From: Candidatus Brocadiia bacterium JP1
Lineage (GTDB): Bacteria > Planctomycetota > Brocadiia > Brocadiales > Bathyanammoxibiaceae
Assembly (NCBI GenBank): GCA_051388875.1
Contig: JBMFFR010000003.1
Coordinates: forward strand, 36,687-100,686
Length of the DNA stretch: 64,000 nt
Direction: 5' to 3'
The translations under genes and the position numbers were made by a program. Below the pieces are notes generated by a model that was not told the origin of the DNA, did no database searches, and worked only from the letters and a program-made list of their open reading frames with translations. Below are positions 6,255-46,200 of the stretch, piece by piece (position 1 is the stretch's first letter; every line of letters begins with the position of its first letter).

Positions 6255-7646
6255 ATGCTAATTATTATTAATATATTTTTAACGTTTTTACTTTCCATGG
6301 CACAGCCCCTTCCGGCCGCCCCTCCTGAGGATACCCAGGCAAAGCCTACCTTGAATACTCAACAGAATTTTTGGTGTTGGTATCATGCAAAGAACCCACT
6401 TCGGGAGGTACCAGCTACTTATCCTGTTACCAGGGAATTTTGGACCTGGTATTTGCAGGTGATGCCACCGGAGAATATAAAGGTGAAGGCTACATGCAGG
6501 GGGATTGGGCAAAATGTTTATGTGTTTGTAAATGATGTGGACTGGCAGAGGTCAGTAAGCCAGGCGGATGTGGACAAGATAATAGAGGTCTTTGACCGTA
6601 CAACCCCTGCTGACCCTAATAAAGGGATATATCAGATTGCTACAGAAGTATTTGGCTCCCCTCCTGATAAAGACGGCGACCCGAAGATATACCTGCTTAT
6701 CTCTGAACTAGGGGAATTCAAGGGACACCATTTTGACGGTTTTTTTAGATACATAGACCAGACCAATGAGAAGGGTAGCAACAATTTAGAAATACTTTAT
6801 CTGGATGCTCATCACCCGGCTAGTGAATACCACCTCGGTGTACTCGCCCACGAGCTACAACATCTTATTCACTGGCGCTACGACACCGAAGAAGAAGGAT
6901 GGGTAAATGAGGCCCTCTCAGAAGTGTGTATGATACTTTGTGGTTATTATACGGATAAGCGTCACGTTGAGACCTTCCTTACGCGTCCGGATAGGCCACT
7001 GATAACAACAGGGCACGGTATGGTTAGCTACGGGGCTTGTTTACTATGGGGCACTTACATTTACGATAGATTGGGCGTTGAATTCCTTGGTAGGTGGGTA
7101 AAAGAGCCTGCACAAGGGATAAATGGGTTTGAGGATGCCCTAAAACATATGGCTTCTAAGGATACTTTTGACAGCCTATTTGCTGACTGGGTTGTTGCCC
7201 TATTTTTAAATGAACCAGAGGTGCAAAACGGGCTTTACGCCTATAAATTTTTATTCCTTCCTTTTAGCCCTTTTAGTGAGAACATTAGCTCCTACCCTGC
7301 TGGAGGTGAGGCTGAAGTAAATGGCTACGGGATTGATTATATTAAGTTCTTGCTACCAGAACAGAAAGGCAGGCTGAATATAACAATAAAAGGGGATTCC
7401 CCCAATCTTTTAACAACCGTGATAGAGCCTAATAAGGAGTCACCACCGTTTACTAAAATCAATAGGTTCAGGGCAAAAGAATCCCGCATCCTTATAGATA
7501 ATAGTAGTGTAATTGGACAAAAGGAGGCCATTCTGGCGATTACCGCCCTTGAGATTACAAAGAAGCCCGTAAAATACCACTTCGCGGCTACATGGGAGAA
7601 GACTGTACGCAAAGATGAGTTTGGTGCTGCTGTAGACCCGGAGTAA
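6255..7646 (+). CDS. Secreted HExxH zinc metallopeptidase-like protein (gluzincin-type)
   Basis: Signal-peptide-like N-terminus. HELQH is followed 16 residues later by NEALSE, resembling the thermolysin-type NEAxSD third zinc ligand. Confidence 0.55.
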   Translation: MLIIINIFLTFLLSMAQPLPAAPPEDTQAKPTLNTQQNFWCWYHAKNPLREVPATYPVTREFWTWYLQVMPPENIKVKATCRGIGQNVYVFVNDVDWQRSVSQADVDKIIEVFDRTTPADPNKGIYQIATEVFGSPPDKDGDPKIYLLISELGEFKGHHFDGFFRYIDQTNEKGSNNLEILYLDAHHPASEYHLGVLAHELQHLIHWRYDTEEEGWVNEALSEVCMILCGYYTDKRHVETFLTRPDRPLITTGHGMVSYGACLLWGTYIYDRLGVEFLGRWVKEPAQGINGFEDALKHMASKDTFDSLFADWVVALFLNEPEVQNGLYAYKFLFLPFSPFSENISSYPAGGEAEVNGYGIDYIKFLLPEQKGRLNITIKGDSPNLLTTVIEPNKESPPFTKINRFRAKESRILIDNSSVIGQKEAILAITALEITKKPVKYHFAATWEKTVRKDEFGAAVDPE

Positions 7647-8640: not shown

Positions 8641-10269
8641 ATGGCGGCAAAAAAGATCCTTTATAAACAGGAAGTTGCTGAGGTAATAAAGAAGGGGGTC
8701 TCAAAGGCTGCTCGGGCAGTCAAGGTTACGCTGGGACCTAGGGGAAGGGAAGTAATAATAGCCAAGAGTTTTGGCTCCCCGACAATAACAAAGGACGGGG
8801 TCACAGTGGCTAAGGAGATTGAGCTAGAAGACCCGTATGAAGATTTAGGAGCAAGGCTAGTAAAAGAGGTAGCCTCTAAGACGAGCGATGTTGCAGGAGA
8901 TGGCACCACTACTGCCACTATACTGGCTGAAGCTATATTCCTGGAGGGCTTGAAAAATGTTGCCGCAGGGGCTAACGCTATGGCCCTACGCAAAGGTATA
9001 GAAAAGGCTACTGAAAAGGTGGTAGAGGAGCTTAACAAAATGAGCATCCCAGTAGCTGGAAAAAAGGAAATCATGCAAGTGGCTACTATCGCCTCCAATG
9101 GGGATAAGGAGATAGGTCAGTATATAGCAGATGCTATGGAGAGGGTGGGTAAGGATGGGGTGATTACAGTAGAGGAGGGGCGGTCACTCCAAACTACTAT
9201 AGATTGGGTTGAGGGTATGCAATTTGATAAAGGTTATCTATCCCCTTATTTTGTTACCTCGGCTGAGACTATGGAGGCGGTGCTTGAGAGGCCCTACATT
9301 CTCGTCTACGAAAAAAAACTCTCACAAATAAGAGACCTTATCCCTTTACTGGAAAAAGTATTTGGGGCAGGGAGGCCCCTACTAATTATTGCTGAGGATA
9401 TAGAGGGAGAAGCATTAGCTACCTTAGTGGTGAATAGACTAAGAGGGGTTCTGTCCTGTTGTGCCGTTAAAGCCCCGGGTTTCGGTGAAAGAAGGAAGGC
9501 TATGCTGGGGGATATTGCGGTAGTAACAAAAGCTAATGCTGTCTTTGAAGACCTCGGCATTCAACTGACAAGCCTGAACATCTCGGACCTTGGCAGCGCA
9601 AAAAAGGTGGTAGTAACTAAAGATACTACTACAATTATAGAAGGGGCTGGGGATAGGGAGTCTATAAAGGGGCGAATAGAACAGATTCGTAAGGAACTAG
9701 AAATCACTACCTCTGAGTATGACAGAGAAAAACTCCAGGAGAGGCTGGCTAAATTGTCGGGTGGTGTAGCTAGAATAAATATTGGGGCGGCTACGGAGGC
9801 TGAAATGAAGGAGAAAAAGGCACGAATGGAAGACGCTATACATGCCACCCGTGCTGCTGTGGAGGAGGGGATATTGCCCGGGGGTGGGGTTGCCCTCCTT
9901 AAGGCATCCAGCGTACTTGATACTTTAGAGCTTTTAGGGGATGAGCGCACCGGCCGAGAAGTATTACGTTCAGCCCTAAAAGTACCTATCAAGCAGCTGG
10001 CGGAAAATGCAGGTGTTGATGGAGGAGTTGTGCTATATAAAGTAGAGTCCCTACTGGCAGAAAAGGCCAATAAGGGTTTTGACGCCGCCGAGGGAAAGTA
10101 TGCAGATATGATAGAGTCAGGGATTGTTGACCCAACGAAAGTAGTAAGGACCGCCTTGCAAAATGCCTCCAGTATAGCGGCCCTGCTGCTTACTACCGAT
10201 GCCCTTGTCGGAGAGATACCTGAAGAGAAAGAAGAGACACCAGCAAGCCCCCATATGCATCCCCATTAA
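8641..10269 (+). CDS. groEL: Chaperonin GroEL
   Basis: Canonical GroEL motifs ([19 protein letters not shown]). The C-terminus is PHMHPH rather than the GGM repeat. Confidence 0.97.
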
Positions 10270-16664: not shown

Positions 16665-18437
16665 ATGGTGAGTAAAAAGGATGTAGCTAGATCTGAGGAA
16701 AATCGTCTCTGGAGTTTCTTTACCTCAGTAAAACTAGCAGTTGTACTTATTTTTCTAATAGCCATTGCCTGTGGTCTTGGTACATTCATAGTACAGGATA
16801 AGGGCACAGAAGAATATAATGCGAGGTTTGGGGAAGGCCTGGCTTATTTCTTGCAGGTTACCCAGATTACGCAAGTATTCCACTCCTACTGGTTTACCTT
16901 TTTACTGGTATTACTGGTAGCTAACCTGGTTTGCTGTACCATATATCACTGGCGAGGAACCCTCTTACAGACAGGCTTCCTACTTACCCACATCAGCATA
17001 CTCCTCATACTAGTGGGGAGTATCACAGGTCTCTGGTTTGGGCAGAAAGGGGTGCTTTGGATTGCCGAGGGCCAGAAGGCTAACCAGTTTCACCTCAGAG
17101 ATGGTACCCCCAAACCCTTACCCTTTGAACTTTATCTGGACGCCTTCATTACAGAGAAGTATCCATCAAAGTACGACCTTCTTTCCTATATAAAAGACCA
17201 GCACAAGGAGGGGTTCCTCTCAACTGAACTAGGCAAGCCTCAGGCTATACAAAAGAGTCCTTATGTGGTAACCGTAAAGGATTACATCCCCGATGCAGCC
17301 CTTCTAGAGGAGGCCATAAACACTTCTGAGGAGGTAAAAAACCCGGCCATTTTTGTCCAACTTTACGGTTCGGAGACCGTTACGGTGGAAGGGTGGCTAG
17401 TGGCTAAGGATCGCAACTGGTATGTGGACAGGAAAAGGGATCTCAAGTTGGAATACCATTGGGCGGAATCTGAGGAGGAACTCCAGAGGTTCGGCGTAAG
17501 CAATCCCTCCAAGCCAAAACTCACCCTTCGTCTGAAAGATAAGGCTATTGCCCAGGAGTTGGTGGCAGAACCGGGTAGGAGTTACACGTGGGAAGGATAT
17601 AATGTAAAGATTATGGACTTTGCCCTGGATTTCGTTCAGAGGGTAAAGCCGCTGAGGGAGCAACAACCCAATAACCCTGCTATATTTATTGAACTGGATG
17701 GTCCCCAGGGGAAAGAGAGCCGATGGGTATTCGCAAACTTCCCGGATTGGGACGAAATGCATCCAACTAAATATAAAGAACTCAAGCTGCTCTGTGAGAT
17801 ACCTGAGGACCTTTCTTTTGTAAATCAACAGATTAAGATACTCCAGGGGCCGAATGATAAGCGCGTGCTAGCTTACATCAAAGGGGATAAAGTGGTAGAG
17901 AGTTTCCAGTGGGAGCTGGATAAGAAATATGATATCGGTGATTCTGGGAGCCAGATTAAGGTCACGAAATTTTACCCCTCCTTTGGGGTGAAACAATCTG
18001 TGGTAAAGAAGTCTGACGACCTCAAGAAACCGGCCCTTTTCGTGGAAATTGATGGACCAAGGGGGAAAATGGTAGATTGGGTTTTTGCAGAAGCTCAACA
18101 AGCCACGGCCTATAAGGATGGTAACTTTTTTCTCCTTTACAAACAAATGGGAGAAAACATCAAGGACTGGAAGAGTAAGCTCAGGATAGTGGATGGTGGG
18201 AAAACGGTGGCAGAGAAGACCATAGAGGTAAATGACCCATTAAAATATAAGGGTTACGCCTTTTACCAGGCTAGCTACGACCCTCAAAATGAGAAACTCT
18301 CCGGTTTACAAGTGGCAAATGACCCGGGTGTTCCCCTGGTCTACTTTGGTTTCTTCTCACTTTGCTTTGGTATTATATTCATATTTTACATAAAGCCTTT
18401 GCTAAGGCGTAGGATGTCTGCCACAAGTAATAATTGA
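16665..18437 (+). CDS. resB: Cytochrome c biogenesis protein ResB/Ccs1 (System II)
   Basis: ResB-like N-terminal TM segments, a large periplasmic domain and a C-terminal TM segment. It lies immediately upstream of ccsA. Confidence 0.85.
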   Translation: MVSKKDVARSEENRLWSFFTSVKLAVVLIFLIAIACGLGTFIVQDKGTEEYNARFGEGLAYFLQVTQITQVFHSYWFTFLLVLLVANLVCCTIYHWRGTLLQTGFLLTHISILLILVGSITGLWFGQKGVLWIAEGQKANQFHLRDGTPKPLPFELYLDAFITEKYPSKYDLLSYIKDQHKEGFLSTELGKPQAIQKSPYVVTVKDYIPDAALLEEAINTSEEVKNPAIFVQLYGSETVTVEGWLVAKDRNWYVDRKRDLKLEYHWAESEEELQRFGVSNPSKPKLTLRLKDKAIAQELVAEPGRSYTWEGYNVKIMDFALDFVQRVKPLREQQPNNPAIFIELDGPQGKESRWVFANFPDWDEMHPTKYKELKLLCEIPEDLSFVNQQIKILQGPNDKRVLAYIKGDKVVESFQWELDKKYDIGDSGSQIKVTKFYPSFGVKQSVVKKSDDLKKPALFVEIDGPRGKMVDWVFAEAQQATAYKDGNFFLLYKQMGENIKDWKSKLRIVDGGKTVAEKTIEVNDPLKYKGYAFYQASYDPQNEKLSGLQVANDPGVPLVYFGFFSLCFGIIFIFYIKPLLRRRMSATSNN

Positions 18438-19637: not shown

Positions 19638-19665
19638 TTGAATAAAATTATAGCGGTTGTATAAT
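19638..19665 (+). promoter_or_regulatory. Sigma70-type promoter candidate directly abutting a start codon
   Basis: TTGAAT (19638-19643), 16-nt spacer, TATAAT (19660-19665). The ATG at 19675 follows 9 nt later with no SD. Confidence 0.5.
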
Positions 19666-19674
19666 TCTCACATT

Positions 19675-20001
19675 ATGAAAACTAAAGACAAACCATTGGT
19701 AAAAAAAGAAGAGAACCTGGCAAAAGCACAACAAGAAGTGCGCCATAGACTGGAAAGGTGGTTGAAAGGTACCTCCTATAGATTCAATCCAGATACTTCT
19801 ACCGTAGACACAATTATAAAGGGACTTGCTTTAAGGAAACAAAAGTATGGAGAGGAATTGTGTCCGTGCCGTGTCGTAGCCCAGGATGCGCAAGAGAATA
19901 AAAAAATTGTCTGCCCCTGCATTTATCATGAGGAAGAGATAAACCAGCATGGAGTATGTTTTTGTGGGCTCTTTGTTGGACCTAACTATAAACCAGATTA
20001 G
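19675..20001 (+). CDS. Ferredoxin:thioredoxin reductase catalytic-subunit-like protein
   Basis: CPC-x14-CPC-x12-CFC cysteine pattern similar to the FTR beta CPC...CPC...CHC pattern. The ORF-track TTG start at 19657 lies inside the predicted promoter. Confidence 0.6.
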   Translation: MKTKDKPLVKKEENLAKAQQEVRHRLERWLKGTSYRFNPDTSTVDTIIKGLALRKQKYGEELCPCRVVAQDAQENKKIVCPCIYHEEEINQHGVCFCGLFVGPNYKPD

Positions 20002-26159: not shown

Positions 26160-26358
26160 GTATAGGCCCATGAAGGGTCTGGGCATAGATAAGTCCATCG
26201 CAGGGCCAACTTAAGAATTTCCATTCATAGTATTGAGTTCAGGATACAAATCCATCCCACCAGAATACGATTTTTTGTCTTATTATCAATAACAGTTGCT
26301 TTGTTTATTGCAATATATTCAATCATTGAGTAAAATTTGCTTTAAGAAGGTTACTGTG

Positions 26359-27567
26359 ATGGGACAAGGATCTCCGACACCGCAAAGACCAAGAATTCCG
26401 GTAGCTCACGGCAGGACTGCCCATAAAGGGCCGGAAAGGGGACACGGTCTTTTTTACTATCTTATCCTACTGTGTTTCTTCGGTAGTTTTATACCTTATC
26501 TTATAACCACCGCACTCACCTGTAGTGCTGTAAAAGGCTCCTTCAGGAGAGAGGTATTTAATCACCTGATTTCTGTAAGAGACATAAAAAGGGGTCAGTT
26601 GGAGCATTATTTCTTAGATAGAAAGGCGGACACTTATGCCTTAGCCACTAGCCCCCTGATTGTAAGGGCAGCCGCCTCTTTTATTAATGGCTTTAAGCAG
26701 GGTGGACTTGAAGGTAATCTTTATAAGGAGGCCGATATTAACTACGGCCGTATGTTAGAAGATTTCTGTAATGCCCATGAATATTACGATATATTTGTAG
26801 TGGACATGGAGGGGAATATAGTAGTCAGTGCAAGGGACTTTCCTGTACAGGGCAAGAACATACCTAAGAACTATCCGGATAGCCCTCTATCAGAGACGTT
26901 TAAGCGAGGTATGGAAGGTATCAACATAGGAGATATGAGGTGGTATGAGCCTTACAGGGGGCCGGCTATTTTTGTTTCTGCCCCTCTTGTCCTGAGGCGA
27001 GCTGAAGAAAGAACCATGGTAGGCGTTATAATAGCCCATATAAACCCCATAAAGATAAATGAGATAATGGCTCAGAGGTCGGGACTAGGTGAAACGGGGG
27101 AGACTTATGTAGTGGGGCAAGATTTTTTGATGCGTTCGGATTCCCGTTTCTTTCAGGACTCAACGATGCTAAGAAAGAGTGTGGATACTGTTGCGGTTAG
27201 AGAGTCCCTGGCAAATCAACCCAACTGTAAGGTAATTAATGACTACCGGGAGCAGAAGGTCCTTTCCGCCTATGTACCAGTAGAGATAACTGAAGGTATA
27301 CGCTGGGCACTTATTGCGGAGATAGATGTGAGAGAGGCGTTAAATCTTGAGGATACCATTTCTGGCCGTGTGATCTATTTAACGTTGGCTATAATTCCTT
27401 TTTGGGGGGTTATTCTTTTTATATTTTATAGGCTTATCAGGGCCTGGCACAGGCAGGAGATGGTGCATATTGCAGCACATCCTCATGCCACTGGTCATCC
27501 TCCTATACCGGGGCCGCATTCCATAGTGGACCCCCATACCACCCCTCCTCATGGCCCGAAGGCGTAG
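26359..27567 (+). CDS. Membrane protein with Cache-like periplasmic domain and no output domain
   Basis: Two TM segments flank a Cache-like region of about 300 aa (YVVGQDFLMRSDSRF). The short cytoplasmic tail is His/Pro-rich. The ATG at 26359 has the SD AAGAAGG. Confidence 0.55.
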   Translation: MGQGSPTPQRPRIPVAHGRTAHKGPERGHGLFYYLILLCFFGSFIPYLITTALTCSAVKGSFRREVFNHLISVRDIKRGQLEHYFLDRKADTYALATSPLIVRAAASFINGFKQGGLEGNLYKEADINYGRMLEDFCNAHEYYDIFVVDMEGNIVVSARDFPVQGKNIPKNYPDSPLSETFKRGMEGINIGDMRWYEPYRGPAIFVSAPLVLRRAEERTMVGVIIAHINPIKINEIMAQRSGLGETGETYVVGQDFLMRSDSRFFQDSTMLRKSVDTVAVRESLANQPNCKVINDYREQKVLSAYVPVEITEGIRWALIAEIDVREALNLEDTISGRVIYLTLAIIPFWGVILFIFYRLIRAWHRQEMVHIAAHPHATGHPPIPGPHSIVDPHTTPPHGPKA

Positions 27568-36190: not shown

Positions 36191-36383
36191 GGTCTTTATC
36201 TCGGAATACCTTTGGAAGGATACCCTTGTTTCAAATATTTTGCAAGACAAAAGAGGTCAAGAGAAGGTCCTTTAGTTTATACAAGAATCCTCAGGTTTAA
36301 ACATTTTATTCACAAGTACTTGATACCTAAAAAGTTCCGTTTGTGGTCAAAGAAGGGGGGATGAGTGATTGCAGTGGATGTAT

Positions 36384-36556
36384 ATGAATAAAGAAAGTAT
36401 TGTCGGTGATTTGATAAACTTTTATGGGATGGTTTAGAGACCCATCAAAGAGAATGGGTTTTCCCGTATGGAAAAGTTATAGGGGACGTTAACATGTATA
36501 TTAAAGAGATTAAGCCTGTATTTTCTAGTTGTGTGGGTAAGGGGGCTTACAGCTAA
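36384..36556 (+). pseudogene. Possible decayed gene remnant
   Basis: It reads MNKESIVGDLINFYGMV*RPIKENG..., then after a frame change NMYIKEIKPVFSSCVGKG. Coding-like segments are broken by stops and a frameshift. Confidence 0.3.
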
Positions 36557-36686
36557 AAAAGGAAGAGGTGGCCACTAATCGCTTATCACTCGGAGGGCCT
36601 GGATCACAGCAAGGCCATCCAGATATAAAGGCTTGACCCATTGAAGTGGTGGTGTATATAATATTTCAAAAAAAGAAATACAGCTA

Positions 36687-36881
36687 ATGGATTGGCTCTA
36701 TATTTTATTCGTTATCTTGACCTTTGCGCTTATAGTCCTAACTGTGCGGAAATATTGGAGAAAGTGGCCCACACGGGTAGAGGACAAGTTAGAGAAGATT
36801 GACAAGAGGTTGGGGGGCTCGTACCAGGTGGGCTCGCTTGAGGGTGGCCTTAATCACGAGGAAAAAGGGGCAACCGGTTAG
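36687..36881 (+). CDS. Small single-TM protein (64 aa)
   Basis: Preceded by TTGACC...TATAAT (36633-36662). N-terminal TM helix WLYILFVILTFALIVLTV. Confidence 0.45.
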   Translation: MDWLYILFVILTFALIVLTVRKYWRKWPTRVEDKLEKIDKRLGGSYQVGSLEGGLNHEEKGATG

Positions 36882-36919
36882 AGACTCTCAATCTGTCCTT
36901 GAGCTAAAGGGGGATTAGT

Positions 36920-37048
36920 GTGAATTATAATCTAGAAGGTATGGAGGTTAAGAGGGGAGAGGGGAAAATACCCTGGTTTCTAAACCTCGCCTTTCTGATA
37001 CTTATACTCTGGGCAATATACTATCTATGGGAAAATGTTTTAAAGTAG
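36920..37048 (+). CDS. Unannotated 42-aa single-TM protein, FixP_N/CcoP-N-terminus-like
   Basis: GTG start 5 nt after the SD AAAGGGGGA. It translates to VNYNLEGMEVKRGEGKIPWFLNLAFLILILWAIYYLWENVLK. It falls below the ORF-track size cut-off. Confidence 0.45.
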   Translation: MNYNLEGMEVKRGEGKIPWFLNLAFLILILWAIYYLWENVLK

Positions 37049-37059
37049 AATTAAGACTT

Positions 37060-37257
37060 CTGAAAAACTCTGAGCAACTGTCATTCCTTCGCTCCGCTCA
37101 GGACGAGTATGAGGGAGTGAAACAAAGGGGAAGGGTCTAGATTCTTCACTTTGTTCAGAATGACCCTTTGGGTTAGATTCTTCGCTTCCCCTTCGCCTTT
37201 GGCTCAGGGCTTCGGCTTACTCAGAATGACATATGGATAGCAAAAATGATTTTTCAG
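37060..37257. repeat. MITE-like element copy 2 (termini CTGAAAAA / TTTTTCAG)
   Basis: Inverted termini lie at 37060-37067 and 37250-37257. Internal units are of the GTCATTC...GAATGAC and GATTCTTC type. The right end, reverse-complemented, matches the left end of the element at 831-972. Confidence 0.5.
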
Positions 37258-37266
37258 GGGTCTGGA

Positions 37267-38760
37267 TTACCTTCCCCCCATTGCAAGGAATAATACCTTT
37301 TCAGGGGTGGCCTCTTCTTTGCGCAACTCGCCCATGATTCTTCCGTTATGCATTACCAGTATCCTGTCACTATGGTCTATAACCTCTTGGAGTTCGGAAG
37401 ATATTAGTATTACGGCGGCGCCTCTATCAGCAAGCTCTCTTATAAGGCTATGGACTTCTTCTTTTGCACCCACGTCAATCCCGCGGGTAGGCTCATCAAA
37501 GATAAAGACCCTTGCTCCCTTGAGTAGCCATTTTGCAAGGACTACCTTCTGCTGGTTACCACCGCTGAGGTTTATTACCTTTTGCTCAAGGCTTGGGGTT
37601 TTAACCCTCAGGTTTTCCACCATCTTGCGTGCGGCACCGCCTTCTTTCTTGCCGTTGACAAAGCCAAGGTTAGCAAAGCTAGGGAGACTGGCTAGACTTA
37701 TGTTTTCCCTTACTGCCATATTTAGCACTAGCCCCAGCCCTTTCCTATCTTCTGGAACAAGTACTACCCCCGCCCTTGTAGCGTAGATGGGGGACTTGAA
37801 GTGTACAGGGCGCCCAAGTATGAGTATCCTTCCTTTATCCAGTGGGTCCAGTCCGTAAAGCGCCCTTGCAAGTTCTGTCTTGCCTGCCCCTACCAGACCT
37901 GCGAGGCCTAAAATCTCTCCCTCTGTTACAACCAGGTTAATATCTTCAAGGATGCCTCTTCTTGTTAGCCCCTCTACTCTTAATATTTCTCGCCCGAGGG
38001 CTACTTCTTTTCTAGGAGTGGCTTTTGTAAAGACTTTACCCAGCATTAGTTCAATGAGCCTTTCTTTAGTGATGTCCTGGAGCTTGCAGGTTTCCACCAG
38101 TTGCCCATCCCTCAGTACGGTGACGCTATCAGCAATCTCAAATATCTCTTCTAAGCGATGGGATATGTAGATTATTCCTTTTCCCTCCGCTTTTAGAATT
38201 CGGATAATGGAAAAGAGCGTTTCTGTTTCCTTCATACTCAAGGTGGCAGTGGGCTCATCCATTGCAATTACCACGGCTTCTTTGGCTAGTGCCTTGGCGA
38301 TCTCCACTAGCTGTTGTTGCGCAACGCCAAGGTTGGCCACCTGTTCTTTGGGACTGAAAGTGGCGCCTAGTTTTTCAAGATAACGGGTAGTCTCCATGTA
38401 CATCCTGTTATGATCTACGAAACCCAATCGGTTGCGGGGTTCCATTCCTAGAAAGATGTTTTCAGCCACTGTTAAATGGGGGACAAGGTTAAACTCTTGG
38501 TAAATAATGCTGATGCCTAAATCCATGGCCTTTTTAGGGGAGGTGATGTTTAGTCGTGTGCCATCCATAAAGATGTCCCCAGCGTCCATTTGTATAGCAC
38601 CTGAGAGTATTTTTAGTAGGGTGGATTTGCCTGCGCCGTTTACCCCCAGAAGGGCATGGACCTCCCCAAACATGACCTCAAAATCTACCCCATCCAGGGC
38701 TCGGACACCCGGGTACTCCTTCCTTATGCCCCTCATAAGGAGTTTATTTGAAAGGGTCAT
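37267..38760 (-). CDS. Sugar ABC transporter ATP-binding protein (duplicated ABC domains, RbsA/MglA-like)
   Basis: Two Walker A motifs (GVNGAGKST, GLVGAGKTE) and the signature LSGGNQQK. Confidence 0.9.
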   Translation of the reverse strand: MTLSNKLLMRGIRKEYPGVRALDGVDFEVMFGEVHALLGVNGAGKSTLLKILSGAIQMDAGDIFMDGTRLNITSPKKAMDLGISIIYQEFNLVPHLTVAENIFLGMEPRNRLGFVDHNRMYMETTRYLEKLGATFSPKEQVANLGVAQQQLVEIAKALAKEAVVIAMDEPTATLSMKETETLFSIIRILKAEGKGIIYISHRLEEIFEIADSVTVLRDGQLVETCKLQDITKERLIELMLGKVFTKATPRKEVALGREILRVEGLTRRGILEDINLVVTEGEILGLAGLVGAGKTELARALYGLDPLDKGRILILGRPVHFKSPIYATRAGVVLVPEDRKGLGLVLNMAVRENISLASLPSFANLGFVNGKKEGGAARKMVENLRVKTPSLEQKVINLSGGNQQKVVLAKWLLKGARVFIFDEPTRGIDVGAKEEVHSLIRELADRGAAVILISSELQEVIDHSDRILVMHNGRIMGELRKEEATPEKVLFLAMGGR

Positions 38761-39666
38761 TTAATCTTTTTTAGGTAGGGATTCTATGTCTATTATCCCT
38801 GTTTCTATAGGGATTTCAAAGGGGACGGTTGACCCCTCTAGGAAGGCAGCCACAGTTTCTATCGTAACTTTTCCTATGTTTTCTGGATACTGTACGACGT
38901 CAGCCTTGAGTGGGCCACCCTTTTTTATGGCCTGTATAGCCTCGGGCGTGGCATCGTAACCAACAACAAAGATGTCGCGTCTATTAGCCGCCTCCAGGGC
39001 GGCAACGGCTCCCAGGGCTGTATTATCATTTATTGCAAAAATCCCCTTTATCGCTGGGTGTGCAAGGAGCATGTTTTGCATGATTATCATAGCCTTGTCT
39101 CTATCACCACCGGCGGAGGGTTCGTCCACCACTTTCATATTTGGATACCCCGCTAGTGCCTCCTTAAAGCCAGCTACACGTTCCTGGACGCTTGTTACTT
39201 CAGGATGGTCTATTATGCCAATCTCCCCTTCATTGTTAAGCAATTTGGCCAGGTAATGTCCTGCCAGGCGGCCACCCTGGCGGTTATCAGAGGCTATATG
39301 GCATACTACCCTTGCATCTTTTGACCTTATATCAGCGGTAAAGACAGGGATACCTGACTTGTTGGCCTTTTCAATGGCCGTTCCTATACCTATGGAATCT
39401 ACGGGGCATATCACCAGGGCGTCTACCCTTTGTACTATAAAATTTTCCACTTGGGCGGTTTGCAGATTAAGGTCCTTTTCAGCAGATTGTATGCTGAGCT
39501 TAATCCCCCTCCTTTTTGCCTCCTCTTGCAGTCCCCTTTCAAGCTCCTGATAGAAGACGTCACGGGTAAGCAGGGTGACGCCCACCAGGGATTCCTTCTT
39601 TTTTGCCCCTGTTTCAACTGTAATAATTAAAAGCAATATAGAAAGTATAATAAAGTTCTTAATCAT
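38761..39666 (-). CDS. Periplasmic sugar-binding protein (RbsB/LacI-fold type)
   Basis: Signal peptide and periplasmic-binding-protein type I sequence. Its stop abuts the ATPase start. Confidence 0.85.
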   Translation of the reverse strand: MIKNFIILSILLLIITVETGAKKKESLVGVTLLTRDVFYQELERGLQEEAKRRGIKLSIQSAEKDLNLQTAQVENFIVQRVDALVICPVDSIGIGTAIEKANKSGIPVFTADIRSKDARVVCHIASDNRQGGRLAGHYLAKLLNNEGEIGIIDHPEVTSVQERVAGFKEALAGYPNMKVVDEPSAGGDRDKAMIIMQNMLLAHPAIKGIFAINDNTALGAVAALEAANRRDIFVVGYDATPEAIQAIKKGGPLKADVVQYPENIGKVTIETVAAFLEGSTVPFEIPIETGIIDIESLPKKD

Positions 39667-41161: not shown

Positions 41162-42088
41162 TTAAGTGGTTCTTAAAAGGTACTCAAAGGCGCTCATGAC
41201 AGCTGTGGCAGCTTGACCAGAGGCTATAACTATCTGTTTGTCCTTTACATTGGTAACATCGCCAGCGGCAAAGAGTCCCGGGGTGCCGGTCCAGGTGTCG
41301 CAATCCACTATTATTTCTCCACGCTCGTTCATTTGTACCAATTCCTTTGCAAAGTCACTGTTGGGTAATAATCCTATTTCTACAAAGACGCCATCCACTG
41401 TAAGGCTCTTGTATTCGTCTCCCTTCGGAAATGTCTTTATTGTAACCCCTTTTACCATTTCATGGCCGACAATGGCTTCTACCACGTAGCCTATTATCTT
41501 TTCAATGTTGGTGGCCGCTTTGACGTTCTCTATGAGAGGTGCCTCATTAGCCCTCCACTCACGGCGAGATATAAGATAGACTTTGTTTGCAATCCTTGAG
41601 AGTTCAAAGGCGGCGGACAGGGCAGAGTTTCCCCCGCCGACTACTGCTACATTGGCATCAGCAAATAGGGGAGCGTCGCAAGTGGCACAATAACTAACGC
41701 CCTTACCTCTGTATTTATCTTCACCCTGGACGCCCAGTTGTCTTGGTTTGGCACCGGTGGCTATTATGCAAGATTTGGCTGTGTGTTCCTTGCCAGAGTT
41801 AGTCTGGACGACGAAGACCCCATTACTATGTGAAAGCCTCGTAATTTTTTCCCCAAAATGTCTTTCTATATCAAATTTATCCATCTGTGAGCGGAACTTC
41901 TCCACCAGCTCTGGGCCAGTTATGTAGGGGAAACCGGGGTAGTTCTCTATGCCGAAGGTAGTGGCCACTTGCCCCCCAACATCCTCACTAAGCATAATAA
42001 TGTCTATTCTCTTTCTGGCGGCGTAGATTGCGGCAGTCATACCGGCTGGGCCACAACCAAGTATCATCAATTCGTGGACAGAGCCCAT
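41162..42088 (-). CDS. trxB: Thioredoxin-disulfide reductase
   Basis: FAD motif GCGPAG, the redox CATCDA motif and NAD(P)H motif GGGNSA. Confidence 0.9.
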   Translation of the reverse strand: MGSVHELMILGCGPAGMTAAIYAARKRIDIIMLSEDVGGQVATTFGIENYPGFPYITGPELVEKFRSQMDKFDIERHFGEKITRLSHSNGVFVVQTNSGKEHTAKSCIIATGAKPRQLGVQGEDKYRGKGVSYCATCDAPLFADANVAVVGGGNSALSAAFELSRIANKVYLISRREWRANEAPLIENVKAATNIEKIIGYVVEAIVGHEMVKGVTIKTFPKGDEYKSLTVDGVFVEIGLLPNSDFAKELVQMNERGEIIVDCDTWTGTPGLFAAGDVTNVKDKQIVIASGQAATAVMSAFEYLLRTT

Positions 42089-42112
42089 AAGTAGAGTTCA
42101 GTATGTCTTAGG

Positions 42113-42355
42113 TCAACTCTTTTGCTCTTCAAGAATCTTTTCAATCCTTGTCTGATCAAAGCCTATCATCACCTCTTCGCCAGCAGATATGACAGGCACA
42201 CTGCGACCCCCGCTGATGCGAATCATTTCCTTAAGGGCCTCTTTGTCCTGAGTGACATTATACTCTTTGTATGGGATGCCTTTTTTCTTGAAGTAATCTT
42301 TGGCTTTTACACAATAAGGGCAGGTAGGTGTTGTGTAAATCTTTATATCAATCAT
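42113..42355 (-). CDS. Glutaredoxin/NrdH-like small redoxin
   Basis: 80 aa with a TCPYC active site, and VP and GF motifs of the glutaredoxin fold. Confidence 0.85.
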   Translation of the reverse strand: MIDIKIYTTPTCPYCVKAKDYFKKKGIPYKEYNVTQDKEALKEMIRISGGRSVPVISAGEEVMIGFDQTRIEKILEEQKS

Positions 42356-43295: not shown

Positions 43296-44039
43296 TTACG
43301 GGTTCCGCAGTACATTAAGTATTTCTTCGGGGTCTGGGCGAACCATAAGGTTGGTAGTTGCACGTATCCAGCGGACAAAGCCCTCTTTATTTACAATTAG
43401 TGTGGCTGGTCTAGAGACGTCTCCTCCTTTATAGCCACCCTTTGCATGTAGAAGCCCATACTTTGTAACCACTTCCATCTTGGGGTCTGAAAGGAAGATT
43501 AAGTTGAGATTGGTCTTTTGCTTATAGGCTGCCAGGGATTCTGGGCTATCACCGCTAATGGTGATGACCTTAGCCCCCAATCTTTCTATCTCAGCGAGTC
43601 TTGCTCCAAGACCTTGGAGCTCTGCCCGACAGCCGGGTCACCATACGCCCCGATAAAACACTATGACTGCCCCATACTTCCCTTTCAGGCTGGAGAGGGC
43701 GAATGAGTTACTCTGATAGTCCAAAAGGGTGAAATCGGGTGCTGGCTGGTCTATGGACACCTTGACCTCTGCCGGGGATAGCTTGGCATAAATGAAGCGA
43801 ATATAAACGAATAGGGATGAAACCAGCAGGGCAAGAATTAGCGGTGCAATAGTCCAGGCAGACTTTTCCTGCTTTAAATTGTATATGGCCCAAGCTATCG
43901 CAACCAGTAGGATTATCAAGTTGGGTATTGCTGTATTCCTGACCCAGGGAACTCCTAACAGTAAGAAAAAGCTGGTTACCCCTAATAGGGCTAATATGAG
44001 TGGACCAATTTGTAAAATTCTTAGCTTCATATTGAACAC
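43296..44039 (-). CDS. Membrane-anchored peroxiredoxin-like/AhpC-TSA redoxin, probable selenoprotein (TGA at 43638-43640 read as Sec)
   Basis: Two same-frame ORFs are joined by a single TGA at the W-C-P-x-C position (FYRGVW-U-PGC). Three N-terminal TM helices. A downstream hairpin is present. Confidence 0.7.
43603..43620 (-). promoter_or_regulatory. Candidate bacterial SECIS apical hairpin
   Basis: The mRNA reads GCUCCAA-GGUC-UUGGAGC and starts 17 nt after the UGA. Confidence 0.55.
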
Positions 44040-44055: not shown

Positions 44056-45108
44056 TTATTCAAACGATTCGTACCTTAAGACTTCCTCCAAGCGTTTCCT
44101 TTGAGATTCTACCTCATTTAATTTTTCATACAAGTGTTCTAACCTTTCTGTAATTTTAGAGCGTTCTTTGTCAAATTGTTCCGACTGTTGAGCTAGATGT
44201 CCATCCACTTCCTTTTTTGGCAAAAATAGTCTTTTTTCAGTTCGTACTATTCTTGGTCTTCCTATAGGTCTTCCCTCTTCATCCATGTTCTCAATAGTCC
44301 TTTCTGTAACTTCCTTAGATTCTTCTTCGGACTGTTGTTTTAGTTCAATGCGTTGCCAGTTTAAATAATCCCTTGTACGGGCATCAAAGTCACTAAGCGT
44401 GCCCCTTATTTGCACAATTTCATCCCTTATTTTTGCGAACAGCAAATCGGCCTCATATAGTTGGGCTTCCTTTTCGTCAATGGTTTCCCACCAGTCTTTT
44501 GGTATAGACCTTACTTCTCCTTCAATTTTGCTGGCTTTCTCTTGGGTATTTGCCTCATGGTAGGCTGCTTTTGCGGTCGCAATGTTTCCAAGCTTTCTAT
44601 AAGTATCTCCAATCAATTCCAAGGCCTGCGAGTTTTGGGGATTATGTTTGAGGACTTCCTTTAGTGTGCTTATGGTCAGGCCGTTTAAACCCTCTGCATA
44701 GTAGAGCATAGCTGTTTTTAAAAGCCCGACTTCTTGCGGACTCCACCGGGATAGGCTTTTCTCTTTTGACCTGTGGAAATATTCCGTGGCTATCGCATTA
44801 TTACTATCCAGGAGCAGTACCCAGCGGAGATTTTCTACTGCTTGGTCATATTCTCCAAGGTAGTGATTGGCAATTCCCAGGAGGAGATGAGCCTCTTTGT
44901 TTAATGTGTCTTTTTTGAGGATAAATTCACACAGCCTAGCTACTTGCCTGTATTGTCTTGCCTTCAGTCCTTCATCTGCCATCTCTAGGAGCAAATCGGT
45001 ATCACTAGCGGCACTCCTCTCTTCATGAGGAAGTTGCGTGGAGCTTTGGGCATAAGTGGGCGTGCCTGATAGAGTAAGAAGCAACAAAAAAGGGCAAGTT
45101 AACCTCAT
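44056..45108 (-). CDS. Secreted TPR plus coiled-coil protein
   Basis: Signal peptide, TPR-like repeats, and a charged coiled-coil C-terminal half. Confidence 0.6.
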   Translation of the reverse strand: MRLTCPFLLLLTLSGTPTYAQSSTQLPHEERSAASDTDLLLEMADEGLKARQYRQVARLCEFILKKDTLNKEAHLLLGIANHYLGEYDQAVENLRWVLLLDSNNAIATEYFHRSKEKSLSRWSPQEVGLLKTAMLYYAEGLNGLTISTLKEVLKHNPQNSQALELIGDTYRKLGNIATAKAAYHEANTQEKASKIEGEVRSIPKDWWETIDEKEAQLYEADLLFAKIRDEIVQIRGTLSDFDARTRDYLNWQRIELKQQSEEESKEVTERTIENMDEEGRPIGRPRIVRTEKRLFLPKKEVDGHLAQQSEQFDKERSKITERLEHLYEKLNEVESQRKRLEEVLRYESFE

Positions 45109-45308: not shown

Positions 45309-45746
45309 CTACTGTTTTGGATATAGTGCCCTCTGGCGTAACTCCTCCGCATTCTTTAGCAACTCTGCACGAATTTCTTTAGGGGGTCTAAACTCTTTAG
45401 GTTCAAGTGTAAAGTTAAAGGTTCTTTCATCTTTTAAGGTTACTGGCACGATTAGCTCTGTGGCTAAATCAATCGGGAAAAATTGATAGTAGGGAGGGTT
45501 AAGATTTGCCATCATAGTGAGCCTGTTGTGCGTGAGTCTTCCATCACTATCCCTTTTTTCTATAGTAATCTTTCTAACTCCGTAGTAGGTGAAGGGCATC
45601 TTAACAGGGCTTTCCCCTACAAGTTGGTCATCCAGAAATATCTGGGCACCAGGCGGGTCTGTGTTTATCACCATATTCCTGGTAACGCAACCACCCCAAA
45701 TAAACATTGATACGAGGATTAAAATCTTATTAAAGGAAAAACACAT
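45309..45746 (-). CDS. PEGA-domain protein, probable lipoprotein
   Basis: PEGA-like DPPGAQIFLDDQLVGESP. The signal sequence ends in WGGC. Confidence 0.65.
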   Translation of the reverse strand: MCFSFNKILILVSMFIWGGCVTRNMVINTDPPGAQIFLDDQLVGESPVKMPFTYYGVRKITIEKRDSDGRLTHNRLTMMANLNPPYYQFFPIDLATELIVPVTLKDERTFNFTLEPKEFRPPKEIRAELLKNAEELRQRALYPKQ

Positions 45747-46200
45747 GGGCCTCTAGACTCTCCAGGTTTATCACTCCAGCGGAAGGTCTGTTAAACACCC
45801 AGCCCCCGCACTCCCCAGGGTTTATGAAGAGGGGCTTGCCTTCTTTTATCTCAAATTCGTGGGTATGGCCGTAAATGAATATATCAGCTTGCTCAATCAA
45901 TTTCTGCCGTACTTGTTCCTTATAGTGGGCTAGAAGGATACGCCTCCCGGCAAGCTCAAAAAGGTAGGGAGGTTCGTGTACTTCTTTACAAAGTGCCCTG
46001 AGACCGATTTTCTCGCCGTCGTTATTACCAAAAACTCCTACCAGCCTGATACCGGATTTAAGTAACGCCTTCATAGCAAATGGCGCCACAAAATCTCCGG
46101 CGTGGAGGATACACTCCACCCCTTCCTTAAAGAACTTCTCAACAGCCTTCTGGATTGTGTTGAGGTTATCGTGAGAGTCTGCAAGTACACCAACTTTCAT
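45730..46200 (-). CDS. YfcE/MJ0936-family metallophosphoesterase
   Basis: Motifs DSHDN, GDFV, GNNDG and GHTH. Confidence 0.88.
   Translation of the reverse strand: MKVGVLADSHDNLNTIQKAVEKFFKEGVECILHAGDFVAPFAMKALLKSGIRLVGVFGNNDGEKIGLRALCKEVHEPPYLFELAGRRILLAHYKEQVRQKLIEQADIFIYGHTHEFEIKEGKPLFINPGECGGWVFNRPSAGVINLESLEAHVFFL

What the first reader, a model, noticed from the sequence alone, without database searches (positions are those of the whole stretch)
43296..44039. In-frame TGA at the redox cysteine of a membrane-anchored peroxiredoxin-like protein, with a GGUC-loop hairpin downstream: probable selenocysteine recoding
The minus-strand ORFs 43638..44039 and 43296..43580 share a frame. Only one TGA (43638-43640) interrupts them, and the codons in between read PGCRAELQGLGARLAEIERL with no stop. 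Joined, the protein reads ...GAVIVFYRGVW-[TGA]-PGCRAELQ... In AhpC/TSA-type redoxins this position carries the first Cys of the W-C-P-x-C motif, so the gene encodes U-x-x-C. On the mRNA, 17 nt after the UGA, lies GCUCCAA-GGUC-UUGGAGC (43603-43620): a 7-bp stem with a GGUC apical loop. As I recall, this is the same loop sequence as in the E. coli fdhF SECIS. The N-terminal 100 aa contain three predicted TM helices, so the redoxin domain probably faces outward. Gene callers would report two fragments or a pseudogene.
Basis: partly seen in the sequence, partly recalled or inferred. Interest (0 to 1): 0.75.

Follow-up and report, generated by a model that had tools for sequence, protein, structure and literature searches.

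The report
Membrane-anchored peroxiredoxin-like selenoprotein gene
The apparent broken gene is almost certainly one intact gene for a membrane-anchored redox protein whose in-frame TGA is read as selenocysteine; this is a known kind of recoding that gene callers routinely mis-annotate as two fragments.

Summary
One TGA (43638-43640, minus strand) interrupts a 244-codon reading frame (44030..43296). The joined product matches Pfam AhpC-TSA end to end across the TGA. A 7-bp hairpin with a GGUC loop starts 17 nt after the UGA and meets all four published bacterial SECIS constraints.

Comparative evidence decides the case. Of the 150 best library relatives of the N-terminal fragment, 142 end at exactly this column (…F[YF]RGxW). 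In all 8 relatives whose DNA I could read, the codon is TGA. The frame then continues through xxC, for 112-117 codons in the six contigs that reach a stop. Each has a hairpin in or near the same register, with compensatory base changes. Two Cys-form relatives encode the same ELRGL peptide without the hairpin.

TGA is an ordinary stop in this window (10 of 45 genes). The Sec machinery (selA, selB, selD, tRNA-Sec) is not in the 64 kb, and I could not search the rest of the genome, a Brocadiales-related planctomycete.

Sec-containing Prx-like UxxC proteins have been catalogued since 2004-2008, so this is a new member of a known kind. The three-helix membrane anchor and the strong predominance of Sec forms may be undescribed details.

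The parts
43296..44030 (-). Complete selenoprotein gene: ATG 44030-44028, Sec-UGA as codon 131, stop TAA 43298-43296; 244 residues.
   Evidence: Single frame with one TGA. Pfam AhpC-TSA matches across the TGA. The start at ATG 44030 (MKLRIL...) rather than GTG 44039 is inferred from the orthologue in L154, which begins MKAKIL.
43638..43640 (-). In-frame UGA read as selenocysteine (U131 of the U-P-G-C motif).
   Evidence: The column is Cys in Cys-form homologues. It is TGA in 8 of 8 membrane-anchored relatives and 7 soluble relatives. 142 of 150 library relatives end here.
43603..43620 (-). SECIS-type hairpin: 5' arm 43620-43614, loop GGUC 43613-43610, 3' arm 43609-43603. The loop lies 24 nt after the UGA.
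   Evidence: -9.1 kcal/mol and meets all four bSECIS constraints. Same-register hairpin in relatives, with compensatory changes. Absent in Cys forms.
43629..43631 (-). Cys134 codon (TGT), second residue of the UxxC redox pair. It aligns with the peroxidatic Cys of BCP-type peroxiredoxins.
   Evidence: Invariant column in alignment A1. Alignment to PDB 2ywn.
43779..44030 (-). N-terminal membrane domain: three hydrophobic helices (about residues 6-25, 38-52 and 62-82), a conserved Arg31 in loop 1 and a K/R-rich loop 2.
   Evidence: Hydropathy and charge profile of this protein and 129 relatives. No Pfam family matches this part.
43368..43754 (-). Thioredoxin-fold AhpC/TSA (Prx-like) domain, residues 93-221.
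   Evidence: Pfam PF00578 at 102 bits and PF08534 at 58 bits. Nearest solved structure is the BCP 2ywn, E 2.9e-16.
45309..46200 (-). Upstream same-strand genes (metallophosphoesterase 45730-46200, PEGA-domain protein 45309-45746) that form a conserved neighbourhood with the selenoprotein gene. In this window a TPR gene (44056-45108) lies between them and the selenoprotein gene.
   Evidence: Pfam. Metallophos - PEGA - split Prx-like gene - cupin (opposite strand) recurs in L154. L155 shows a cut upstream ORF (no Pfam on record), PEGA, the split Prx-like gene and a cut ORF on the opposite strand.

Best explanation
The region 44030..43296 (minus strand) is one gene for a 244-residue membrane-anchored, peroxiredoxin-like selenoprotein.

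- **Shown.** The frame, the domain match across the TGA, and the hairpin are in the sequence. The TGA and the hairpin are conserved in relatives.
- **Inferred, translation.** When the ribosome reaches UGA at codon 131, SelB carrying Sec-tRNA(Sec) is held in place by the hairpin 17 nt downstream (GCUCCAA-GGUC-UUGGAGC). Selenocysteine is inserted and translation runs on to TAA at 43296-43298.
- **Inferred, topology.** Three N-terminal helices anchor the protein with the N-terminus in the cytoplasm. The thioredoxin-fold domain sits on the outer face of the cytoplasmic membrane.
- **Inferred, chemistry.** U131-P-G-C134 cycles between selenol/thiol and selenenylsulfide. The protein would act as a thiol-disulfide oxidoreductase or thiol-dependent peroxide reductase. 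The substrate and the reductant are unknown.
For: 1. A single frame with one TGA, and AhpC-TSA profile positions 1-123 of 124 matched across it.
2. The TGA column is the first Cys of the CxxC motif in Cys homologues. The second Cys is invariant.
3. 142 of the 150 best library relatives of the N-terminal fragment end at ...F[YF]RGxW, exactly this column. These relatives are cluster representatives at 50% identity.
4. All 8 such relatives read at DNA level have TGA there, and the frame continues through xxC...EL[QRH]GL. It runs 112-117 more codons to a stop in six; two contigs (L160, L161) end first. Two of them (L159, L162) end at a genuine TGA stop.
5. The closest relatives (52-54% identity) are syntenic with the window.
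6. The hairpin satisfies the bSECIS model: loop of 3-9 nt, stem of 4-16 bp, G in the first two loop positions, 16-37 nt from the UGA, MFE at or below -7.5 (model; test, 0.9% of the window's TGAs do as well).
7. Across 9 sequences, 88.9% of stem cells pair, against 33-48% when the partners are slid. Two pairs show compensatory changes (C-G to G-C and U-A; A-U to G-C in four sequences). The covariation score is 0.302 against 0.164 in shuffles, and 0 of 500 shuffles reach it.
8. Two Cys-form relatives (TGC, TGT) encode ELRGLG and ELRGLA at the same place but form only 3 of 7 and 2 of 7 pairs there. Their best bSECIS-like energies are -1.0 and -4.7 kcal/mol.
9. TGA is a normal stop in this window (10 of 45 genes) and never occurs in frame in those 45 genes. 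A reassigned genetic code is therefore excluded.
10. Some Planctomycetes carry full Sec machinery (PMC4807772).
Against: - No selA, selB, selD or tRNA-Sec lies in the 64 kb. The rest of the genome could not be searched.
- No Rfam family matches the hairpin.
- The 66-nt segment does not fold better than its shuffles (z = -0.48).
- The stem overlaps conserved coding sequence. The covariation rests on 9 related sequences and the Cys-form control on 2.
- The E. coli-type bulged U is absent from the stem.
- No read data, expression data or protein data were available.
Confidence: 0.87

Rival explanations
1. It is a selenoprotein-type gene left as a relic. The lineage inherited a Sec-form gene, but this genome has lost the Sec machinery, so translation stops at codon 131 and only a truncated membrane peptide is made.
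For: No Sec machinery or other selenoprotein gene lies in the window. The FtrB-like gene at 19657-20001 resembles a double-selenoprotein family but is an all-Cys form here.
Against: The downstream 113 codons are intact and still match the domain profile. The hairpin is a perfect 7-bp stem. Its only difference from orthologues at 52-54% protein identity keeps a pair (U-A here, U-G there). That is not what decay after loss of Sec decoding would produce.
Confidence: 0.06
2. It is an ordinary pseudogene. A recent nonsense mutation (TGC or TGT to TGA) inactivated a Cys-form peroxiredoxin-like gene.
For: TGA is one step from either Cys codon. Gene callers treat the gene as two pieces.
Against: The same codon is TGA in 8 of 8 relatives from independent samples and implied in 142 of 150 library relatives. 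A SECIS-type hairpin lies at the right distance and covaries. The downstream frame carries no further lesions.
Confidence: 0.03
3. It is a sequencing or assembly error at a single base, and the true codon is TGC or TGT.
For: Read support could not be inspected.
Against: Orthologous contigs from different projects (Logan, ENA, JGI and NCBI records) all show TGA at this codon. The hairpin accompanies TGA forms only, not Cys forms.
Confidence: 0.02
4. It is a naturally split gene, or the UGA is read through by an ordinary tRNA (Trp or Cys) without selenium.
For: Near-cognate read-through of UGA exists in bacteria at a low level. That is general knowledge and was not tested here.
Against: The downstream part is always in frame and begins immediately with xxC, with no conserved start codon. 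The stop sits on the catalytic residue. A conserved structure fitting the SelB-binding model would be unnecessary.
Confidence: 0.02

Closest known systems
Prx-like thiol:disulfide oxidoreductase selenoproteins ('Prx-like 1', PF00578, UxxC). Predicted by Kryukov and Gladyshev in 2004, catalogued in the Sargasso Sea and GOS selenoproteomes (PMC2398784) and listed in the 2026 review PMC13188914.
   Same: AhpC/TSA (PF00578) thioredoxin-fold domain with Sec as the first residue of a UxxC redox motif, and a bacterial SECIS hairpin inside the coding sequence just after the UGA.
   Different: This protein carries a roughly 85-residue N-terminal domain with three membrane helices that has no Pfam family. 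I found no mention of such an anchor in the papers read. Direct homology to the reference sequence WP_010940744.1 was not tested.
NCBIfam NF040769, SelL-related redox protein (bacterial relatives of the eukaryotic Prx-like selenoprotein SelL).
   Same: It is the best-scoring curated NCBIfam model for the domain, and it too is a Prx-like fold with a redox pair at the same place.
   Different: The score is 58.4 bits against a cut-off of 120, and only profile positions 1-103 of 173 match. It is not a member by NCBI's own threshold. The soluble TGA-bearing subfamily found here (L074 and others) also stays below the cut-off at 78 bits.
BCP/PrxQ peroxiredoxins (for example PDB 2ywn and 2cx3) and the Sec-containing peroxiredoxin PrxU (TxxU).
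   Same: Same fold. C134 aligns with their peroxidatic Cys.
   Different: The Pro and Thr of the PxxxTxxC catalytic motif are replaced (FYRGVW-U-PGC against FYPKDDTPGC). Sec sits at the Thr position, not at the peroxidatic position as in PrxU. The PrxU model scores 35.6 bits against a cut-off of 270.
E. coli fdhF SECIS element.
   Same: A hairpin in the coding sequence after the UGA, with an A-GGUC-U apical loop context. By the numbering, the GU of that loop is the G23-U24 that SelB needs.
   Different: The loop lies 24 nt after the UGA here, against 18 nt in fdhF. The stem is a perfect 7 bp without the bulged U17 that E. coli SelB requires.

Membership tests
Bacterial selenoprotein gene (Sec-UGA plus bSECIS) | In-frame UGA at a position occupied by Cys in homologues | tested here: met
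   The column is the first Cys of CxxC in Cys homologues, including the membrane-anchored Cys forms P0021 and P0079.
Bacterial selenoprotein gene (Sec-UGA plus bSECIS) | Hairpin that meets the bSECIS model: loop of 3-9 nt, stem of 4-16 bp, G in the first two loop positions, 16-37 nt between UGA and loop, MFE at or below -7.5 kcal/mol | tested here: met
   Loop GGUC, stem of 7 bp, spacing of 24 nt, -9.1 kcal/mol. The model is as given in PMC13188914.
Bacterial selenoprotein gene (Sec-UGA plus bSECIS) | UGA and the downstream frame conserved in orthologues, with Sec/Cys pairs within the family | tested here: met
   8 of 8 DNA-checked relatives have TGA and the frame continues past it, to a stop after 112-117 codons in six. 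142 of 150 library relatives are truncated at the column. Cys forms exist.
Bacterial selenoprotein gene (Sec-UGA plus bSECIS) | Structure of the SECIS supported by covariation | tested here: met
   Two stem pairs show compensatory changes. 88.9% of cells pair, against 33-48% when slid. 0 of 500 shuffles reach the score. The sample is small (9 sequences) and the stem overlaps coding sequence.
Bacterial selenoprotein gene (Sec-UGA plus bSECIS) | selA, selB, selD and tRNA-Sec present in the same genome | not testable with these tools
   None lies in the 64-kb window. The source contig (367,693 bp, NCBI) and the other contigs could not be fetched.
Bacterial selenoprotein gene (Sec-UGA plus bSECIS) | Selenium shown in the protein (75Se labelling or mass spectrometry) | not testable with these tools
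   This needs an experiment.
Pfam AhpC-TSA (PF00578) | Score above the gathering threshold | tested here: met
   102 bits against 26, profile positions 1-123 of 124, spanning the TGA.
Canonical peroxiredoxin (BCP/PrxQ/AhpC) | PxxxTxxC catalytic motif | tested here: not met
   The Pro is replaced by Arg and the Thr by Sec. Only the Cys is kept (alignments).
NCBIfam NF040769, SelL-related redox protein | Score above the curated cut-off | tested here: not met
   58.4 bits against 120.
NCBIfam NF040737, PrxU (Sec peroxiredoxin) | Score above the curated cut-off | tested here: not met
   35.6 bits against 270.
Prx-like 1 / Prx-like thiol:disulfide oxidoreductase selenoprotein family | PF00578 domain with a UxxC motif | tested here: met
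   Homology to its reference sequence was not tested.
Rfam RNA families | Match to any curated model at the hairpin | tested here: not met
   Nothing at gathering thresholds. At E up to 10 there are only chance-level hits on the opposite strand. I do not know whether Rfam holds a general bacterial SECIS model, so this result carries little weight.

The most novel reading that the evidence does not exclude
The three-helix-anchored form is a distinct family of extracytoplasmic selenoproteins that has not been catalogued. In this family selenocysteine, not cysteine, is the rule: about 142 Sec-type clusters against 3 Cys-type found here. The membrane domain has a conserved loop (Arg31, Pro28, Pro36) and no Pfam family. 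It might couple the UxxC site to a membrane-borne electron source.
Probability: 0.3. Interest if true: 0.45.

Novelty: new member of a known kind. Interest (0 to 1): 0.33.

Why it matters
The gene should be annotated as one selenoprotein rather than as two fragments or a pseudogene. The same correction applies to well over a hundred diverged clusters in public protein collections that end at ...RGxW.

If confirmed, it would show that this Brocadiales-related planctomycete decodes UGA as selenocysteine. It would also place a selenol/thiol redox centre on the outer face of the membrane. For specialists, the notable points are the strong predominance of Sec over Cys forms in this subfamily and the membrane anchor. 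The recoding mechanism itself is textbook.

Tried and rejected
- **Rfam.** Scans at gathering thresholds and at permissive E-values found no SECIS family.
- **Protein search with the joined sequence.** It returned only 18 distant hits, the best at 35% identity, and missed the truncated relatives.
- **Genome and metagenome pattern scans.** They found no close orthologue. Several hits that ended at residue 132 turned out to be unrelated thioredoxin-fold proteins matched through IDQPAPDF. The scans did uncover a soluble subfamily with TGA at the same column.
- **Representative search with the joined protein.** The N-terminal fragment was used instead.
- **Fetching the source contig.** Look-ups of the window's thioredoxin-reductase-like protein and of the 100%-identical GroEL failed. 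The Sec machinery therefore could not be sought elsewhere in the genome.
- **Other selenoprotein genes in the window.** A scan for further TGA-joined ORF pairs gave only noise. The FtrB-like ORF that hits a double-selenoprotein model is an all-Cys form ending in TAG.
- **Reassigned genetic code (TGA as Gly or Trp).** Rejected because TGA ends 10 of 45 genes in the window.
- **Structure prediction.** Not run.

Full report
**1. The observation**

On the minus strand, ORFs 43638..44039 and 43296..43580 lie in one frame and are separated by a single TGA at 43638-43640. Translating 43296-44039 gives ...GAVIVFYRGVW*PGCRAELQGLGARLAEIERLGAKVITISGD... with no other stop before TAA at 43296-43298.

The hairpin GCUCCAA-GGUC-UUGGAGC occupies 43620-43603. 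Seventeen nucleotides separate it from the UGA, and 24 nt separate the UGA from the apical loop.

With Cys written at the TGA, the joined protein matches Pfam AhpC-TSA over profile positions 1-123 of 124 in one stretch that spans the TGA (E 2.8e-29, 102 bits against a gathering score of 26). It also matches Redoxin. The two ORFs are therefore halves of one domain, not a chance pair.

**2. Is the TGA at an active-site cysteine?**

In alignment A1 and in tblastn against 153 fetched loci, the column holds the first Cys of F-Y-R-G-V-W-C-P-x-C in the closest homologues. The second Cys (C134 here) is invariant.

In BCP/PrxQ-type peroxiredoxins the same columns read T-P-G-C. The TGA column is thus the Thr of the PxxxTxxC motif, and C134 aligns with the peroxidatic Cys. 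The alignment to the nearest solved structure, PDB 2ywn (E 2.9e-16), shows the same.

The Pro and Thr of the peroxiredoxin catalytic motif are missing. The protein is therefore 'Prx-like' with a thioredoxin-type UxxC pair.

**3. Comparative evidence**

This is the decisive part. A full HMMER scan of 1.84 billion cluster representatives with the exact N-terminal fragment (130 aa) gave 172 hits. Of the best 150, 142 are predicted proteins that end in ...F[YF]RGxW, which is exactly the column before the TGA. Their median length is 138 residues. Only three full-length Cys forms of the membrane-anchored type were seen: P0021 and P0079 and P0001.

I fetched the DNA for eight of the truncated relatives, from Logan, ENA, JGI and NCBI records. 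All eight show the same picture:
- The stop is TGA.
- The frame continues at once with xxC...EL[QRH]GL. It runs 112-117 codons to a stop in six; L160 and L161 reach the contig end first.
- The gene caller had listed a second AhpC-TSA fragment downstream in the six contigs long enough to hold one.
- Two of them (L159, L162) terminate at a real TGA stop, so TGA is read two ways within one gene.

The closest relative, L154 (52% identity), has the same neighbourhood as the window: metallophosphoesterase, PEGA protein, split Prx-like gene, and a cupin on the opposite strand. L155 (54%) shows the PEGA gene, the split gene and cut flanking ORFs in the same places.

A separate soluble subfamily (L074, L075, L078, L087, L010, L091, L098; motif FNRGFx-U-PFC) also has TGA at this column. 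It carries a different hairpin, UGGCGC-AGUU-GCGCCA.

**4. The hairpin as a SECIS element**

The 2026 review PMC13188914 gives the bacterial SECIS model as follows:
- an apical loop of 3-9 nt;
- an upper stem of 4-16 bp;
- G in one of the first two loop positions, usually followed by G or U;
- 16-37 nt between the UGA and the loop;
- MFE at or below -7.5 kcal/mol.

The window's hairpin (loop GGUC, 7 bp, 24 nt, -9.1 kcal/mol) meets all of these. Of 1834 TGA trinucleotides in the window, 0.9% have an equally good ungapped hairpin and 2.2% reach -7.5.

All eight relatives have a hairpin in or near the same register, at -7.3 to -14.0 kcal/mol. On the nine-sequence alignment A2, counting the pairs gives these results:
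- 88.9% of stem cells pair, against 33-48% when the 3' partners are slid by 1-3 columns.
- Two pairs show compensatory changes: columns 24/35 (C-G to G-C and U-A) and columns 26/33 (A-U to G-C in four sequences).
- The covariation score is 0.302 against 0.164 in shuffles, and 0 of 500 shuffles reach it.

Column 24 is the third position of a Leu codon. It covaries with the second position of a Gly/Glu/Ala codon, which coding constraint alone does not explain.

As a control, two Cys-form relatives (L164 with TGC, L165 with TGT) encode ELRGLG and ELRGLA at the same place. They form only 3 of 7 and 2 of 7 pairs in that register, and their best bSECIS-like hairpins are -1.0 and -4.7 kcal/mol.

Several weaknesses remain. 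The sample has nine related sequences and two controls, and the stem lies in conserved coding sequence. The 66-nt segment does not fold better than its shuffles (z = -0.48). Rfam has no match.

The sequence TGACACGGCCCATCGGTTGCAGGTCTGCACC... is 100% present in fdhF of over 5400 genomes. By the numbering in review PMC8659212 (G23 and U24 in the apical loop, U17 bulged), its GGUC is the loop, 18 nt after the UGA. The element here has no bulged U, and its loop lies 6 nt further from the UGA.

**5. Alternatives**

- **Reassigned code.** Excluded. TGA ends 10 of 45 annotated genes in the window and never occurs in frame in them.
- **Fresh nonsense mutation or base-calling error.** Neither explains why independent contigs and 142 diverged clusters share the stop at the catalytic residue together with a covarying hairpin.
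- **Naturally split gene.** It would not keep the two parts in frame with no start codon.
- **Relic gene.** This is the only rival I cannot dismiss: a Sec-type gene in a genome that has lost Sec decoding. The window holds no selA, selB, selD, tRNA-Sec or other selenoprotein gene. The intact downstream frame and the perfect stem argue against decay.

**6. Organism and annotation state**

GroEL of the window is 100% identical to a protein on an NCBI contig of 367,693 bp. The nearest named relatives are Candidatus Hypogeohydataceae bacterium YC41 (81%) and Candidatus Brocadiales MAGs (70-74%).

The window carries anaerobic ribonucleotide reductase genes (nrdD, nrdG, nrdR) and the alternative haem-biosynthesis gene ahbC, which suggests an anaerobe. 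Some other Planctomycetes have complete Sec machinery (PMC4807772). I found nothing on Brocadiales.

**7. Protein architecture and likely function (inference)**

Residues about 6-25, 38-52 and 62-82 are hydrophobic, in this protein and in 129 aligned relatives. Loop 2 carries on average 3.35 Lys/Arg. The segment after helix 3 carries 0.59 Lys/Arg and 1.25 Asp/Glu. The N-terminal tail carries 1.7 Lys/Arg.

By the positive-inside rule, the N-terminus and loop 2 are cytoplasmic. Loop 1 (with Arg31, 85% conserved) and the redox domain face outward. The membrane part has no Cys and no Pfam family.

The most likely chemistry is a selenol/thiol to selenenylsulfide cycle at U131-x-x-C134. That would serve disulfide reduction or peroxide reduction outside the cytoplasm. 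The electron donor is unknown.

**8. Comparison with what is known**

Sec-containing Prx-like proteins with PF00578 and UxxC are an established predicted family. The review lists 'Prx-like thiol:disulfide oxidoreductase, PF00578, UxxC/UxxU'. The GOS study counts 225 Sec sequences and 2,740 Cys homologues for 'Prx-like 1, pfam00578, UxxC'.

No curated NCBIfam model reaches its cut-off. The best is the SelL-related redox protein at 58.4 bits against 120, and PrxU scores 35.6 against 270. That explains why annotation pipelines split the gene.

This is therefore a new member of a known kind. Two details may be new: the three-helix anchor, and the strong predominance of Sec forms (about 142 clusters against 3). 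I found neither mentioned in the papers read, but I did not search exhaustively.

**9. Verdict**

My confidence in Sec recoding is 0.87. The missing piece is the Sec machinery of the same genome.

Noticed in passing
L074:304, L075:285, L078:1931, L087:609, L010:1426, L091:2556, L098:966 (TGA positions): A soluble Prx-like subfamily without membrane helices, including a Candidatus Promineifilaceae MAG contig, has TGA at the same active-site column (FNRGFx-U-PFC[RQ]RHMAQLR). It carries a different conserved hairpin, UGGCGC-AGUU-GCGCCA, about 19 nt after the UGA. It stays below the cut-off of the NCBIfam SelL-related model (78 bits against 120).
   Followed up: partly
window 19657-20001 (+): A 114-aa ORF matches the NCBIfam 'FtrB family double-selenoprotein' model (72 bits, below the cut-off of 160). 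Here it is an all-Cys form (CPC...CPC...CFC) that ends in TAG, so it gives no evidence for or against Sec use in this genome.
   Followed up: yes
window 36251-37266: About 1 kb holds no ORF longer than 64 aa. It lies downstream of a sugar-type ABC transporter ATPase (37267-38760) and binding protein (38761-39666), where a permease gene would be expected. Rfam finds nothing there. Two small hydrophobic ORFs lie on the plus strand (36687-36881 and 36920-37048).
   Followed up: no
window 41162-42355 (-): A thioredoxin-reductase-like flavoprotein (308 aa) and an 80-aa glutaredoxin-like protein (CPYC) sit 1-2 kb from the selenoprotein gene on the same strand. A tRNA-Met, a cold-shock gene and a cupin gene on the other strand lie between them. 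A functional link as the reductant system is possible but untested.
   Followed up: no
window 8641-10269 (+), whole window: GroEL is 100% identical to a protein on an NCBI contig of 367,693 bp. The nearest named relatives are Candidatus Hypogeohydataceae (81%) and Candidatus Brocadiales (70-74%). The contig-lookup tool would not return this record.
   Followed up: partly
window 6255-7646, 16665-18437, 26296-27567 (+): Three long ORFs (463, 590 and 423 aa) have no NCBIfam match at E up to 1e-5.
   Followed up: no
window residues 26-37 of the selenoprotein (about 43920-43955, minus strand): The short loop between helices 1 and 2 is the best-conserved part of the membrane domain across 129 relatives (Pro28 69%, Arg31 85%, Thr33 50%, Pro36 58%). 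That hints at a functional role beyond anchoring.
   Followed up: no
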